Made by a program: the position numbers and the translations under genes. Positions 29,386 through 62,189 of a stretch of DNA of 64,000 nt are shown in pieces. The DNA comes from Escherichia coli (GTDB taxonomy: Bacteria > Pseudomonadota > Gammaproteobacteria > Enterobacterales > Enterobacteriaceae): NCBI RefSeq assembly GCF_029227855.1, contig NZ_CP074356.1. The stretch is one strand, 5' to 3'. The notes under the pieces are model-generated. The model made no database searches and had not been told where the DNA came from. It saw nothing but the letters and a program-made list of their open reading frames with translations. The number at the start of each line of letters is the position of its first letter. The stretch's first letter is position 1.

Positions 29386-30375
29386 TTAGCCGCCAATGTA
29401 CGATAAGTTTTGCGTAATACCGGTGTTATTTTGATGCAGGAAATGGGTCTGTTTCTTCTCCCGCAGCGCCGCTGAAATACGCGCTTCCAGCGCCTGTTGC
29501 TGGGTATCGTCTTCCAGCAGATCGCGCAGGTTAACGCCGCCTTCACCAAACAGGCAGAGATGGAGTTTACCAATGGAGGAAACGCGCAGGCGGTTGCAAG
29601 TGGCGCAGAAGTCTTTTTCATACGGCATGATAAGGCCAATCTCTCCGGCGTAATCCGGATGACAAAAGACTTGCGCGGGACCGTCGCTGCGTTGACGTAA
29701 TTGGTGGATCCAGCCGCGACGCAGTAGCTCGTCACGCAGAACCTGACCAGAGATGTGATGCTTACGGAAGAGCTCGCTGCCCTCACCCGTTTCCATCAAT
29801 TCGATGAAACGCAGCTGGATAGGGCGATGCTGGATCCAGTTCAGAAAGGTGTCGAGCTGATGATGATTAACATCACGCATCAGCACGGTATTGACTTTGA
29901 CCTTCTCAAAACCGGCCTCAAATGCAGCATCGATCCCTGCCATGACCTGGTTGAATTTATCCTGCCCGGTAATGGCATGAAACTGGCGAGCGTCAAGGCT
30001 ATCAACGCTGACGTTGATGCCAGTAAGTCCCGCATCGCGCCAGTTCGCCACATCGCGTTCCAGACGGTAACCATTGGTGGTGACCGCAATCTGGCGGATA
30101 GCGTCGTTTTCCCGCACAGCGGCGATGATATCGGTAAAGTCGCGGCGTAAAGACGGCTCACCACCTGTCAGACGGACTTTTTCGGTGCCCAGACTGGCAA
30201 AGGCGCGCGTAATCCGGCGAATTTCATCGACGGTAAGAAAGCCTTTATTGGTGACGCCGCTCGGTTTGTAGCCATCCGGCAGGCAGTAGGTGCAACGAAA
30301 GTTACACACATCAGTAATCGACAGGCGCAAGTAGTAAAACTTACGCGCAAATGCATCAGTCAGTTGTGAAGCCAT
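29386..30375 (-). CDS. moaA: GTP 3',8-cyclase (radical SAM)
   Basis: Internal ATG at 30375 gives 329 aa ([31 protein letters not shown]) with the CxxxCxxC radical-SAM motif. Confidence 0.93.
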
Positions 30376-30379
30376 GTAC

Positions 30380-30520
30380 ACCTTTCCAGATACGGGAGGC
30401 GAAGTCATTTCTTTCTTCGCCCTGGTGGCAATCTTTACGAGCATTGTCACGGCCAAAGCACCGTATCAGTTGACCCAGGTGCAGAGGCTAGAGTGTTTAG
30501 TGGTTAAGCCGATACTAGCG
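30380..30520 (-). promoter_or_regulatory. Molybdenum-cofactor (Moco) riboswitch candidate in the moaA leader
   Basis: Long structured 5' UTR upstream of moaA; the E. coli moaABCDE leader is the described Moco RNA motif; transcript ends …GCGAAGAAAGAAAUGACUUCGCCUCCCGUAUCUGG before the start; boundaries approximate. Confidence 0.5.
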
Positions 30521-59506: not shown

Positions 59507-60259
59507 ATGGCTGTAACTAAGCTGGTTCTGGTTCGTCATGGCGAAAGTCAGTGGAACAAAGAAAACCGTTTCACCGGTTGGTACGACGTGGATCTGTCTG
59601 AGAAAGGCGTAAGCGAAGCAAAAGCAGCAGGTAAGCTGCTGAAAGAGGAAGGTTACAGCTTTGACTTTGCTTACACCTCTGTGCTGAAACGCGCTATTCA
59701 TACCCTGTGGAATGTGCTGGACGAACTGGATCAGGCATGGCTGCCCGTTGAGAAATCCTGGAAACTGAACGAACGTCACTACGGTGCGTTGCAGGGTCTG
59801 AACAAAGCGGAAACCGCTGAAAAGTATGGCGACGAGCAGGTGAAACAATGGCGTCGTGGTTTTGCGGTGACTCCGCCGGAACTGACTAAAGATGATGAGC
59901 GTTATCCGGGTCACGATCCCCGTTACGCGAAACTGAGCGAGAAAGAACTGCCGCTAACGGAAAGCCTGGCGCTGACCATTGACCGCGTGATCCCTTACTG
60001 GAATGAAACTATTCTACCGCGTATGAAGAGCGGTGAGCGCGTCATCATCGCTGCACACGGTAACTCGTTACGTGCGCTGGTGAAATATCTTGATAACATG
60101 AGCGAAGAAGAGATTCTTGAGCTGAATATCCCGACTGGCGTGCCGCTGGTTTATGAGTTTGACGAGAACTTCAAACCGCTGAAACGCTATTATCTGGGTA
60201 ATGCTGACGAGATCGCGGCGAAAGCAGCGGCCGTTGCAAACCAGGGTAAAGCGAAGTAA
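59507..60259 (+). CDS. gpmA: 2,3-bisphosphoglycerate-dependent phosphoglycerate mutase
   Basis: Internal ATG at 59507 gives 250 aa ([17 protein letters not shown] with the RHG catalytic motif). Confidence 0.97.
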
Positions 60260-60285
60260 ACGTCATTCGTTTAAAAAATAAATAT

Positions 60286-60311
60286 CCTCCGGCATAGCCG
60301 GAGGTTTTTCA
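60286..60311 (+). terminator. Intrinsic terminator after gpmA
   Basis: cctccggc-ata-gccggagg hairpin followed by TTTTTC, about 27 nt after the gpmA stop. Confidence 0.55.
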
Positions 60312-61026
60312 AATGCGCCTATAAGGCTCTCTTACCAGCCGCGCCCTAACAGGCGCACACGATCTGACATTTGCATCCAACTTCGTTACTTACGGCCCGT
60401 AAACGGGCTGCCCGGATAGGGAATCGATAACTGCTCTCCCATTTTATCCTCTTCAAGCTGGTGCTTTATGTAATCCTGTATCTTCGCCGTGTTCTTACCC
60501 ACTGTATCGACGTAGTACCCTCTGCACCAGAACTCCCTGTTCCTGTATTTGAATTTCAAATCACCAAACTGCTCGTAAAGCATCAGACTGCTTTTCCCTT
60601 TCAGATATCCCATAAACCCGGATACGCTCATTTTGGGCGGGATCTCCACAAGCATATGGATATGATCTGCACAGCATTCAGCTTCCAGAATCCGTACGCT
60701 TTTCCACTCACACAGCTTTCTCAAAATACTGCCTATTGCTCTACGCTTCTCTCTGTAGAACACCTGTCTTCGGTATTTTGGCGCAAAAACTATGTGATAT
60801 TTACAGTTCCATCGGGTGTGCGCTAAGCTCTTTTCGTTCCCCATTGGGACCCCCTTTTGATTTCTTGTTTGACACTTGCAGTTGCCAGACCGCAAAGTGT
60901 TTTAACAAATCAAAAGGGGTTTTAATAACTGGCTCAAAGCTGAAAGCTTTCCGGAACCCCCAGCCTAGCTGGGGGTTTTCTGTGCACAATGAGAAAGCCG
61001 ACTGCAAGTGAGTCGGCTTTTTTGTT
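60311..61026 (-). mobile_element. IS200-type insertion sequence (IS200/IS605 family), about 0.7 kb, termini approximate
   Basis: Contains a 152-aa Y1 HuH transposase and, upstream of it, the two IS200 hallmarks: an RBS-sequestering stem-loop (60852-60920) and a terminator-like hairpin (60955-60977); the gpmA-aroG spacer is about 0.7 kb longer than two native terminators/REPs would need. Confidence 0.7.
60386..60844 (-). CDS. tnpA: IS200 transposase TnpA (Y1 HuH transposase)
   Basis: Internal ATG at 60844 gives 152 aa MGNEKSLAHTRWNCKYHIVFAPKYRRQVFY… with the HxH motif (ADHIHMLVEIPP) and a catalytic Tyr region; near-identical to the IS200 TnpA as remembered. Confidence 0.92.
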   Translation of the reverse strand: MGNEKSLAHTRWNCKYHIVFAPKYRRQVFYREKRRAIGSILRKLCEWKSVRILEAECCADHIHMLVEIPPKMSVSGFMGYLKGKSSLMLYEQFGDLKFKYRNREFWCRGYYVDTVGKNTAKIQDYIKHQLEEDKMGEQLSIPYPGSPFTGRK

Positions 61027-61052
61027 TGTCGTTGCTAACAATGGAGCACATT

Positions 61053-61126
61053 GCCTGATGCGACGCTGCGCGTCTTGTCAGGGCTACGGTGATTCATCGG
61101 ATACGCCACTCTGACGGCGCATCCGA
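61053..61126. repeat. REP-like palindromic units downstream of aroG
   Basis: gcctgatgcgacgctgcgcgtcttgtcagggctac and cggatacgccactctgacggcgcatccg resemble REP consensus units. Confidence 0.5.
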
Positions 61127-61136
61127 CAATTAAACC

Positions 61137-62189
61137 TTACCCGCGACGCGCTTTTACTGCATTCGCCAGTTGACGTAACAGAGCATCGGTATCTTCCCAG
61201 CCGATGCAGGCATCAGTGATGCTCTTGCCATAGGCCAGCGGTTCCCCACTCTCGAGGCTCTGATTGCCTTCCACCAGATGGCTTTCCACCATCACGCCAA
61301 TAATGGCCTTTTCGCCACCGGCAATCTGCTGGCAAACGTCAGCACAAACATCCATCTGCTTTTTAAATTGTTTTGACGAGTTAGCATGGCTGAAATCGAT
61401 CATCACCTGTGCTGGCAGGCCTGCTTTGTTCAGCCCTTCTTTCACTTCAGCAACGTGCTTCGCGCTGTAGTTAGGCTCTTTACCGCCGCGCAGAATGATA
61501 TGGCAATCGCCGTTACCGCTGGTATTCACAATCGCCGAATGCCCCCATTTCGTTACGGACAGGAAGCAGTGCGGCGCACCGGCGGCATTAATGGCATCGA
61601 TAGCCACTTTAATCGTACCATCAGTGCCATTTTTGAAGCCTACCGGGCAAGAAAGCCCTGATGCCAGTTCGCGGTGCACCTGCGATTCCGTAGTACGTGC
61701 GCCAATTGCGCCCCAGCTCATCAGGTCAGCGAGATACTGCGGGGTGATCATATCGAGAAATTCACCCGCTGCTGGCAAACCGCTGTCGTTAATATCAAGC
61801 AGCAATTTACGGGCAATACGCAGACCGTCGTTGATCTGGAAGCTGTTATCCATATGCGGATCATTAATCAGCCCTTTCCAGCCCACAGTGGTACGCGGCT
61901 TTTCAAAATAGACGCGCATCACGATTTCCAGCTCATCTTGCAGCTCTTCACGCAGCGTCAGCAAGCGAGTGGCATACTCTTTAGCCGCGACAGGATCATG
62001 AATTGAGCACGGACCAATCACCACCAACAGGCGATCATCATTACCTTTCAGGATCTTATGGATCTCTTTTCGGGCATGGGCGACCGTATTCGCGGCATTT
62101 TCAGTAGCGGGGAATTTTTCCAGCAATGCGACAGGAGGAAGTAACTCTTTGATTTCTTTGATGCGTAAATCGTCGTTCTGATAATTCAT
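61137..62189 (-). CDS. aroG: Phe-sensitive 3-deoxy-7-phosphoheptulonate (DAHP) synthase
   Basis: 350-aa ORF starting MNYQNDDLRIKEIKELLPP; matches AroG. Confidence 0.97.
   Translation of the reverse strand: MNYQNDDLRIKEIKELLPPVALLEKFPATENAANTVAHARKEIHKILKGNDDRLLVVIGPCSIHDPVAAKEYATRLLTLREELQDELEIVMRVYFEKPRTTVGWKGLINDPHMDNSFQINDGLRIARKLLLDINDSGLPAAGEFLDMITPQYLADLMSWGAIGARTTESQVHRELASGLSCPVGFKNGTDGTIKVAIDAINAAGAPHCFLSVTKWGHSAIVNTSGNGDCHIILRGGKEPNYSAKHVAEVKEGLNKAGLPAQVMIDFSHANSSKQFKKQMDVCADVCQQIAGGEKAIIGVMVESHLVEGNQSLESGEPLAYGKSITDACIGWEDTDALLRQLANAVKARRG

What the first reader, a model, noticed from the sequence alone, without database searches (positions are those of the whole stretch)
60311..61026. 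IS200-type insertion between the convergent gpmA and aroG genes
A complete 152-aa IS200 TnpA (Y1 HuH transposase), oriented opposite to gpmA, sits in an intergenic spacer about 0.7 kb longer than needed for the native terminators and REPs. Established knowledge: IS200 is about 707 bp, single-ORF, and is not present at this locus in K-12 (from memory). The insertion lies in a convergent terminator region, which would explain why it is tolerated. Exact termini cannot be set without an empty-site comparison.
Basis: partly seen in the sequence, partly recalled or inferred. Interest (0 to 1): 0.55.

Follow-up and report, generated by a model that had tools for sequence, protein, structure and literature searches.

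The report
IS200C insertion at gpmA–aroG terminator
This is an ordinary, intact copy of the well-known small mobile element IS200C, recently inserted beside the shared terminator between gpmA and aroG; the only notable point is that this element family lands almost always just after terminator hairpins.

Summary
A 152-aa Y1/HUH transposase gene (60386-60844, minus strand) lies in a gpmA-aroG spacer of 877 nt, against about 157-166 nt in strains without it. The element is IS200C. Its TnpA is identical to the commonest RefSeq IS200C transposase.

The closest complete genome, JNEC-KY178, has identical flanks and an empty site. Against it the insertion is 712 nt, about 60276-60987, with 1-3 nt of ambiguity inside an A-run. 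The hairpin at 60286-60304 belongs to the IS. The hairpin at 60994-61020 is the native bidirectional terminator.

Only 7 of 5,426 complete E. coli genomes carry IS200C at this junction. They lie on several flank haplotypes, which suggests a recurrent hot spot.

In 11 of 11 E. coli loci, and in 114 of 116 IS200-like copies from other species, the left end directly follows a GC hairpin plus T-tract. In controls this is 0.8-20%. The association is known statistically from a preprint. That it reflects active targeting is my inference.

Verdict: a known element, low interest.

The parts
60276..60987 (-). IS200C insertion sequence. It is 712 nt relative to the isogenic empty site. An invariant 709-nt core spans 60279-60987. 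The ends are ambiguous by 1-3 nt inside an A-run, so 60277-60988 and 60278-60989 are equally compatible.
   Evidence: Empty-site alignments; the 709-nt core is shared by 11 independent loci; core 100% identical to copies in CFT073, JNEC-KY178 and others.
60286..60304 (-). Right-end (RE) subterminal hairpin, CCTCCGGCTATGCCGGAGG, followed on the tnpA-sense strand by ATATTTATT(T), the RE terminus. On the + strand it is followed by TTTTT, so it now sits 27 nt after the gpmA stop as a terminator-like hairpin.
   Evidence: DNA fold -10 kcal/mol, z -3.7; I5. Its use as a substitute gpmA terminator is inferred.
60386..60844 (-). tnpA, a 152-aa Y1 HUH transposase with HUH motif H61-I-H63 and catalytic-type Tyr125.
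   Evidence: identical in amino acids to the tnpA translated from loci whose RefSeq annotation is WP_000526135.1; Y125F is catalytically dead in Salmonella IS200 (PMC4513863).
60851..60919 (-). [quoted passage not shown] Arms 60851-60866 and 60904-60919.
   Evidence: I2, 94% complementary; Rfam structure alignment; function taken from PMC4513863, not tested here.
60854..60977 (-). Full-length match to Rfam RF01405 STnc490, covering the IS200 left-end regulatory region (LE hairpin, a small hairpin and the 5'UTR stem-loop).
   Evidence: 144.6 bits against a gathering score of 56. It is the only such match in the 64-kb window.
60836..60925 (+). Approximate position of the antisense sRNA art200, complementary to the tnpA 5'UTR and first three codons. 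Placed by homology only.
   Evidence: Inferred from the Salmonella description in PMC4513863; neither transcript end was tested here.
60955..60977 (-). Left-end (LE) subterminal hairpin, AACCCCCAGC-TAG-GCTGGGGGTT. This is the IS200 internal terminator that blocks read-in transcription.
   Evidence: -11.7 kcal/mol; I9; function from PMC4513863. The exact 23-mer was found in 120 or more loci of other species.
60988..60993 (-). Target junction. On the tnpA-sense strand the flank reads ...GGCTTTCTCATT^GTGCAC. The insertion lies 9 nt after the native hairpin stem, after a TT dinucleotide.
   Evidence: The LE junction is identical in all seven other E. coli genomes that carry an IS at this site.
60994..61024 (.). 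Native bidirectional intrinsic terminator of aroG (minus strand) and gpmA (plus strand): AAAGCCGACTGCAAGTGAGTCGGCTTTTTT. It is host DNA, not part of the IS.
   Evidence: Present in all empty sites; fold -10 kcal/mol, z -4.7; (I10).
59507..60259 (+). gpmA, the flanking gene. It now reads into the IS right end.
   Evidence: RefSeq annotation of homologous loci.
61137..62189 (-). aroG, the flanking gene. It is co-oriented with tnpA, and its terminator lies immediately upstream of the IS left end.
   Evidence: RefSeq annotation.

Best explanation
The feature is one intact copy of the insertion sequence IS200C (IS200/IS605 family, IS200 group). It is about 712 nt long and lies at about 60276-60987, with tnpA on the minus strand.

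It inserted without target duplication into the T-tract 9 nt downstream of the native aroG/gpmA bidirectional terminator hairpin. That places it on the strand that serves as lagging-strand template, with tnpA co-oriented with aroG.

The inferred mechanism is the family's 'peel and paste' pathway. The Y1 HUH transposase excises the tnpA-sense strand as a single-stranded circle, using the two subterminal hairpins. It then pastes the circle 3' of a T-rich target.

The insertion is recent. A genome with identical flanks has the empty site and carries an identical donor-type copy elsewhere.

The element keeps every known brake on its own expression: the LE terminator hairpin, the SD-sequestering 5'UTR stem and the art200 region.

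gpmA is now followed by the IS right-end hairpin plus T5 instead of its native terminator. aroG keeps its terminator.

Shown: identity, anatomy, boundaries to within 3 nt, absence from relatives, and the hairpin-adjacent target pattern. Inferred: the transposition chemistry, activity of this particular copy, and the effects on gpmA and aroG.
For: - Identity: NCBIfam transpos_IS200 at 147.7 bits; Pfam Y1_Tnp at 4.4e-38; solved IS200-family transposases 2ec2 at 4e-23, IS608 TnpA 2a6m at 4e-19 and ISDra2 2xm3 at 2e-16.
- Catalytic residues: HUH at residues 61-63 and Tyr125.
- TnpA is identical in amino acids to the tnpA translated from loci annotated WP_000526135.1, the IS200C family transposase.
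- Rfam STnc490 at 144.6 bits.
- No terminal inverted repeats; hairpins at both ends.
- Empty sites in K-12-type and other genomes.
- JNEC-KY178 is 100% identical over 10,271 nt on the left and 3,011 nt on the right, has an empty site, holds 24 IS200C places, and one of them has a core 100% identical to the window's.
- No target duplication beyond the A-run.
- The + strand has negative GC skew across the window, so the tnpA-sense strand is the lagging-strand template. This matches the rule reported for the family (PMC5027513).
- Target pattern.
Against: - No experiment shows that this copy is active. IS200 is described as nearly dormant (PMC4513863).
- The exact ends cannot be fixed, because both junctions lie in A/T runs. 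The inserted length is 711 nt against other haplotype-matched pairs and 712 nt against the isogenic site.
- The polarity of the event is a parsimony argument, because this family excises precisely.
- The ISfinder IS200C reference sequence could not be consulted. The IS200C name rests on RefSeq/PGAP annotation.
Confidence: 0.93

Rival explanations
1. Terminator adjacency is a by-product of selection, not of target choice. IS200 would insert broadly into T-rich DNA. Only copies that land behind a terminator, insulated from read-through and harmless to genes, would persist.
For: [quoted passage not shown] About 20% of T-rich, TT-ending control positions already sit behind a hairpin.
Against: - 98% of 116 copies sit behind a hairpin, against 20% of those controls.
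- The insertion point sits 6-9 nt from the last G-C pair in 90 of 114 copies.
- Eight genomes, counting the window, share exactly the same LE junction at gpmA/aroG, although other positions in the spacer should be equally neutral.
- The window's copy is very recent, with no flank differences from an empty relative.
Confidence: 0.15
2. The same-site copies in different E. coli genomes descend from one old insertion. It would have spread by homologous recombination of the gpmA-aroG region, or have been lost elsewhere by precise excision, rather than arising from repeated independent hits on a hot spot.
For: All filled sites share one LE junction and one orientation. The family excises precisely (PMC5027513), so empty sites could be revertants.
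Against: - Filled sites occur on at least four flank haplotypes, defined by A-run length of 4, 5 or 6, CGCTT versus CGTTT, and presence or absence of GTTTGTC. Each haplotype has a matching empty haplotype.
- Four different AroG protein accessions flank the filled sites.
- The window's IS differs by 6 nt from the same-site copy in OW967178, but by only 1 nt from copies at other loci and by 0 nt from a copy in its empty-site relative.
Confidence: 0.2
3. The relative JNEC-KY178 lost the element by precise excision, so the window shows the ancestral state rather than a recent gain.
For: Precise excision is a property of the family. The two states differ only by the element itself.
Against: 5,418 of 5,426 genomes give a full-length match to the empty-site query, and 7 carry an IS at the junction. 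The next closest genomes at 99.0-99.3% flank identity are mostly not among the filled ones. IS200 activity is reported to be very low.
Confidence: 0.08
4. The ORF is a domesticated REP-associated tyrosine transposase (RAYT) serving the nearby REP, not a mobile IS.
For: A REP-like palindrome lies at about 61040-61085, with a naRNA4 match below threshold. There is weak similarity to NCBIfam REP_Tyr_transpos at 32.2 bits.
Against: The RAYT model scores 32.2 bits against a cutoff of 80, while transpos_IS200 scores 147.7 against 55. The REP is present in empty sites without the ORF. The element is multicopy and bounded by IS200 ends.
Confidence: 0.01

Closest known systems
IS200C of Escherichia coli (IS200/IS605 family, IS200 group), as annotated in RefSeq, e.g. 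in CFT073
   Same: The 709-nt core is 100% identical to copies in CFT073 and 13 other listed records. TnpA is identical in amino acids to the copies annotated WP_000526135.1. The LE and RE hairpins are the same, and the element has a single ORF.
   Different: Only the location differs. The gpmA-aroG terminator is occupied in 7 of 5,426 complete genomes. The RE tail has one more T than in the haplotype-matched 711-nt insertions.
IS200 of Salmonella enterica (707 bp; art200/STnc490 and 5'UTR control; PMC4513863)
   Same: The layout matches: an LE terminator hairpin near nt 12-34, an SD-sequestering stem-loop, the antisense art200 region, a 152-aa TnpA with Y125, and a full-length Rfam STnc490 match.
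   Different: Length is 711-712 nt against 707 bp. This is the E. coli subtype. Regulation was not tested here.
IS1541 of Yersinia pestis
   Same: It has the identical 23-nt LE hairpin, the same RE hairpin and tail (GGAGGATATTTATT), and the same hairpin-plus-T-tract target context in about 55 copies.
   Different: The LE begins GTGCCC instead of GTGCAC. Copy number is much higher, and head-to-tail tandem copies occur.
IS608 (Helicobacter pylori) and ISDra2 (Deinococcus), the mechanistic paradigms of the family
   Same: Homologous Y1 HUH TnpA (2a6m at 4e-19, 2xm3 at 2e-16). Subterminal hairpins, no inverted repeats, no target duplication, and orientation consistent with the lagging-strand template.
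   Different: Those elements carry tnpB and insert 3' of a fixed tetra- or pentanucleotide (an ISDra2 pentanucleotide; IS608 TTAC sites). The IS200 group has no tnpB. Its target is a degenerate T-tract (TTTTNTT) located 6-9 nt after a GC hairpin.

Membership tests
IS200/IS605 family, IS200 group | Encodes a Y1 HUH transposase (Pfam Y1_Tnp / NCBIfam transpos_IS200) | tested here: met
   147.7 bits against a cutoff of 55; Pfam E 4.4e-38; PDB relatives 2ec2, 2a6m and 2xm3.
IS200/IS605 family, IS200 group | HUH metal-binding motif and a single catalytic tyrosine | tested here: met
   H61-I-H63 and Y125. Y125F is the catalytically dead mutant in Salmonella IS200 (PMC4513863).
IS200/IS605 family, IS200 group | No terminal inverted repeats; subterminal hairpins at both ends | tested here: met
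   No inverted repeat links the two ends. Hairpins lie at 60286-60304 (RE) and 60955-60977 (LE).
IS200/IS605 family, IS200 group | Insertion without target-site duplication | tested here: met
   Comparison with the isogenic empty site shows only the element added. A duplication of 1-3 A residues cannot be formally excluded, because the junctions lie in an A-run.
IS200/IS605 family, IS200 group | tnpA alone (no tnpB), about 0.7 kb | tested here: met
   One ORF of family identity within 712 nt.
IS200/IS605 family, IS200 group | Insertion 3' of a short specific target that abuts the left end | tested here: inconclusive
   The flank always ends in TT, with logo TTTTNTT. However, there is no fixed tetranucleotide, and the window's own target is CTCATT. 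The guide-target pairing was not tested.
IS200/IS605 family, IS200 group | Active (tnpA-sense) strand lies on the lagging-strand template | tested here: met
   The + strand has negative GC skew in 12 of 16 bins, cumulative -0.37, and tnpA is on the minus strand. The rule is from PMC5027513. The replication direction is inferred from skew only.
IS200/IS605 family, IS200 group | IS200-type left-end regulatory RNA region (STnc490/art200, 5'UTR stem-loop) | tested here: met
   Rfam RF01405 at 144.6 bits against 56, full length.
IS200/IS605 family, IS200 group | Single-strand 'peel and paste' transposition activity | not testable with these tools
   Needs biochemical or genetic assays.
IS200C (ISfinder name) | At least 95% nucleotide identity to the ISfinder IS200C reference | not testable with these tools
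   ISfinder is not available here. As a proxy, there is 100% identity to copies whose tnpA RefSeq names IS200C family.
REP-associated tyrosine transposase (RAYT) | Passes the NCBIfam REP_Tyr_transpos cutoff and is single-copy, flanked by REPs | tested here: not met
   32.2 bits against a cutoff of 80. The element is multicopy, and the REP is present without it.

The most novel reading that the evidence does not exclude
IS200-group transposases may choose their targets by structure. An intrinsic-terminator-like unit (a GC hairpin, then a T-tract of the form TTTTNTT) mimics the element's own right end (hairpin, then ATATTTATT, cut 9 nt after the stem). On this reading the element is pasted 6-9 nt after such hairpins on the lagging-strand template. 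That would make terminators such as gpmA/aroG and the thr attenuator recurrent hot spots. It would also explain the head-to-tail tandem copies, and why tnpA always sits behind a host terminator. [quoted passage not shown] I did not find the targeting mechanism or the right-end mimicry in the searchable literature, but older IS200 and IS1541 papers could not be read.
Probability: 0.5. Interest if true: 0.45.

Novelty: already known. Interest (0 to 1): 0.2.

Why it matters
For the window itself it matters little. This is a correctly recognisable IS200C copy that does not disrupt a gene. The same insertion is already annotated in a few RefSeq genomes.

It has some use as a clean, recent transposition event of an element reputed to be nearly dormant. 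The filled and empty states sit in otherwise identical flanks, and an identical donor-type copy exists in the relative.

The broader pattern seen along the way is that IS200-like elements in many phyla sit 6-9 nt after terminator hairpins. If it reflects active structural targeting, it would extend the guide/target model worked out for IS608. It would also explain how this element family multiplies with so little damage to the host.

Tried and rejected
- My first empty-site alignment against a K-12-type genome suggested a 713-nt insertion at 60275/7-60987/9. Haplotype-matched empty sites and the isogenic empty site showed that the A-run length varies among strains (4-6). The true added length is 711-712 nt.
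- The Rfam matches below threshold, naRNA4 at 61023-61084 (33.1 bits against 59.5) and RcsR1 at 60945-61023 (24.9 against 60), were set aside. The first is a native REP and the second is a chance match to two terminator hairpins.
- A 10-nt perfect complement joins the IS 5'UTR stem (60873-60882) and the loop of the native terminator (61001-61010) (I8). By my own estimate about 0.4 such pairs are expected by chance in 900 nt, so I treated it as chance.
- The RAYT reading was rejected on scores.
- I tried to read Odaert et al. 1998 (PMC106867), Beuzon and Casadesus 1997 (PMC146608) and Siguier et al. 2014 (PMC7190074), to see whether the terminator target had been described. None is held.
Only the window is available, and it holds one copy.

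Full report
**What is there.** The gpmA stop codon ends at 60259 on the + strand. The aroG stop lies at 61137 on the minus strand. The 877 nt between them compare with 157 nt in a K-12-type genome.

The extra DNA holds one ORF of clear identity, 60386..60844 on the minus strand, 152 aa from its ATG.
- It matches NCBIfam NF033573 (transpos_IS200) at 147.7 bits against a curated cutoff of 55.
- It matches Pfam Y1_Tnp at E 4.4e-38.
- It matches the solved IS200-family transposases 2ec2, 2f4f, IS608 TnpA (2a6m) and ISDra2 TnpA (2xm3) at E 4e-23 to 2e-16.
- It has the HUH motif (H61-I-H63) and Tyr125. Tyr125 is the residue whose Y125F change kills Salmonella IS200 TnpA (PMC4513863).
- It is identical in amino acids to the tnpA translated from loci that RefSeq annotates as WP_000526135.1, 'IS200/IS605-like element IS200C family transposase'.

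Comparison with 11 independent IS200C loci in other E. coli genomes shows an invariant 709-nt core, TAAAT...GTGCAC, at window 60279-60987. An AA dinucleotide lies on each side of it.

My first alignment, to a K-12-type empty site, suggested 713 inserted nt. However, the A-run next to the element varies among strains. Empty sites exist with A4, A5 and A6. Filled sites exist with A4, A5 and A6 followed by the core and AA-TGAG. Each filled haplotype has an empty counterpart with the same A-run, which gives 711 nt. The thr attenuator gives 711 nt as well: T8 + core + T3 in CFT073, against T9 in K-12.

The best comparator is the complete genome NZ_AP045174.1 (JNEC-KY178). It is 100% identical over 10,271 nt to the left. 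It has no mismatch over 3,011 nt to the right, and its site is empty: CGTTT-A5-TGAG. Against it the window has 712 extra nt.

Under the family convention that the target abuts the left end (PMC6006769), the element is 60276-60987. Placements 60277-60988 and 60278-60989 fit equally well.

It follows that the hairpin CCTCCGGCATAGCCGGAGG + T5 at 60286-60309, which looks like a gpmA terminator, is the IS right end. The hairpin AAAGCCGACT...AGTCGGCTTTTTT at 60994-61024 is host DNA, because it is present in every empty site.

**Anatomy of the element.** There are no terminal inverted repeats.

Reading the tnpA-sense (minus) strand from the left end:
- the LE hairpin AACCCCCAGC-TAG-GCTGGGGGTT at 60977-60955;
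- a long stem-loop whose arms (60919-60904 and 60866-60851) cover the Shine-Dalgarno region (I2);
- tnpA;
- the RE hairpin at 60304-60286, followed by ATATTTATT(T).

The left-end region gives a full-length match to Rfam RF01405 (STnc490) at 144.6 bits against a gathering score of 56.

In Salmonella IS200 these parts are, respectively, a bidirectional terminator that blocks read-in transcription, a translation-blocking structure, and the template of the antisense sRNA art200 (PMC4513863). Those functions are carried over here by homology and were not tested. The window contains only this one copy.

**Population context.** Of 5,426 complete E. coli genomes, 5,418 give a full-length match to the empty-site query.
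- Six have an intact IS200C at this locus.
- One more has it truncated by an ISL3 element.
- All share exactly the window's left-end junction and orientation.

They nonetheless sit on different flank haplotypes: A-run length, CGCTT versus CGTTT, and presence or absence of GTTTGTC. They also sit next to four different AroG protein accessions.

The window's IS differs by 6 nt from the same-site copy in OW967178. It differs by only 1 nt from copies at four other loci. It differs by 0 nt from a copy elsewhere in its empty-site relative JNEC-KY178, which holds 24 IS200C places.

The simplest reading is repeated independent insertion at one hot spot, with a recent gain in the window's lineage. A single old insertion moved by recombination, or precise excision in the relatives, cannot be excluded without trees.

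IS200C as such is common. There are matches in 3,096 of 5,426 genomes, with up to 35 places per genome.

**Target site.** In all 11 independent E. coli loci the left end is preceded, on the tnpA-sense strand, by a GC-rich hairpin and a T-rich tail ending in TT.
- The mean folding energy of the 45 nt upstream is -17.4 kcal/mol, against -5.3 on the right-end side (Wilcoxon p = 0.001).
- The neighbouring gene on that side is co-oriented with tnpA: aroG, thrL, uhpT, plaP, yfeX, ypfM, thyA, yfeY, ybhJ and mukB.
- The element therefore sits directly behind that gene's intrinsic terminator. In CFT073 it sits behind the thr attenuator.

They include about 55 IS1541 copies of Yersinia pestis, and copies in Vibrio, Brenneria, Dickeya, Edwardsiella, Oxalobacter and Mailhella, plus Bacillota and other MAGs.

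Among 116 unique non-tandem flanks:

| Set | Share with a hairpin ending within 9 nt of the junction |
|---|---|
| IS200-like left-end flanks (n = 116) | 98% (114 of 116) |
| T-rich control positions ending in TT | 20% |

On the stricter terminator-like test, which also requires a T-rich tail, 106 of the 116 flanks pass, against 4.8% of positions ending in TT and 0.8% of random positions.
- The distance from the last G-C pair to the junction is 6-9 nt in 90 of 114 copies. The element's own right end is cut 9 nt after its hairpin.
- The target logo is TTTTNTT, and the right-end tail is ATTTATT.
- In Y. pestis some copies lie directly after the right end of another copy...GGAGGATATTTATT|GTGCCC.

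A selection-only explanation does not account for this nucleotide-level precision or for the same-site recurrences. I therefore favour active targeting of a right-end-like structure, but that is an inference.

[quoted passage not shown] IS1541 between pheL and pheA in Yersinia is a published instance of the same kind (PMC3082878).

I could not read the older IS200 and IS1541 papers, so I do not claim that this pattern is new.

**How it most likely works.** The family mechanism is established for IS608 and ISDra2 (PMC5027513 and PMC6006769). TnpA binds the two subterminal hairpins in single-stranded DNA. It cuts at positions set by pairing between a guide just 5' of each hairpin and the cleavage sequence. 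It releases a single-stranded circle and integrates it 3' of the target on the lagging-strand template.

Here the sequences 5' of both hairpins are A-rich (AGAA-AA at LE, GAAAAA at RE), and both cleavage sequences are T-rich. That fits the scheme, but the pairing itself was not tested.

The + strand of the window has negative GC skew. The tnpA-sense strand is therefore the lagging-strand template, as the rule predicts.

**Consequences for the host (inferred).**
- aroG keeps its hairpin and the first 9 nt of its T-tract.
- gpmA now meets the IS right-end hairpin plus T5 27 nt after its stop codon.
- tnpA lies behind two terminators in series.

**Verdict.** It is a recent, harmless insertion at what appears to be a recurrent hot spot. 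Interest in the finding itself is low. The terminator-hairpin target preference is the one point worth following up.

Noticed in passing
L004-L013 (E. coli) and L022-L141 (other species), left-end flanks: IS200-like elements sit almost always 6-9 nt after a GC hairpin plus T-tract (target logo TTTTNTT): 11 of 11 E. coli loci and 114 of 116 copies from other species, against 0.8-20% in controls. The target resembles the element's own right end.
   Followed up: yes
L087, L088, L090, L104, L134 (Yersinia pestis NCTC5923): Head-to-tail tandem IS1541 copies. The right end of one copy (...GGAGGATATTTATT or ...ATTTATTT) abuts the left end (GTGCCC...) of the next. The one-T variation matches the 711 versus 712 nt difference seen in E. 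coli.
   Followed up: partly
L022-L082 (MAGs labelled Oxalobacter, Bacillota, Peptococcaceae, Mailhella, Desulfovibrio, Saccharibacteria, Elusimicrobiaceae): The exact 23-nt IS200 left-end hairpin of enterobacteria occurs in multicopy elements of very distant taxa, mostly at contig ends. This could reflect wide horizontal spread, or binning contamination in some MAGs.
   Followed up: no
L018 (NZ_CP116067.1), homologous to window 60460-61300: In strain DETEC-S792 the IS200C at this same junction is truncated at its right-end side by an ISL3-family element, and the gpmA side is rearranged.
   Followed up: partly
window 61025-61031: A 7-nt indel polymorphism (GTTTGTC) lies just after the native terminator's T-run. 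It is present in the window and many strains and absent from K-12-type genomes. The A-run at 60273-60278 also varies from 4 to 6 among empty sites.
   Followed up: partly
window 60873-60882 and 61001-61010: A 10-nt perfect complement joins the stem of the tnpA 5'UTR and the loop of the native aroG/gpmA terminator. By my own estimate about 0.4 such pairs are expected by chance in this 900-nt stretch, so it is probably chance.
   Followed up: partly
window 61040-61085: A native REP-type palindrome (GCCTGATGCGACGCTGCGCGTCTTGTCAGGGC) lies between the terminator and aroG. It gives an Rfam naRNA4 match below threshold (33.1 bits against 59.5) and is present in empty sites too.
   Followed up: partly
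window 30363-30507 (minus strand): A molybdenum cofactor riboswitch (Rfam RF01055, 102.9 bits). I expect this upstream of the moa operon in this chromosomal region (from memory; its neighbouring genes were not examined).
   Followed up: no
window 60854-60977: The Rfam STnc490 model matches the tnpA-sense strand and begins at the LE terminator hairpin. PMC4513863, however, describes STnc490/art200 as antisense to the tnpA 5'UTR. The Rfam family therefore appears to model the sense-strand left-end region.
   Followed up: no
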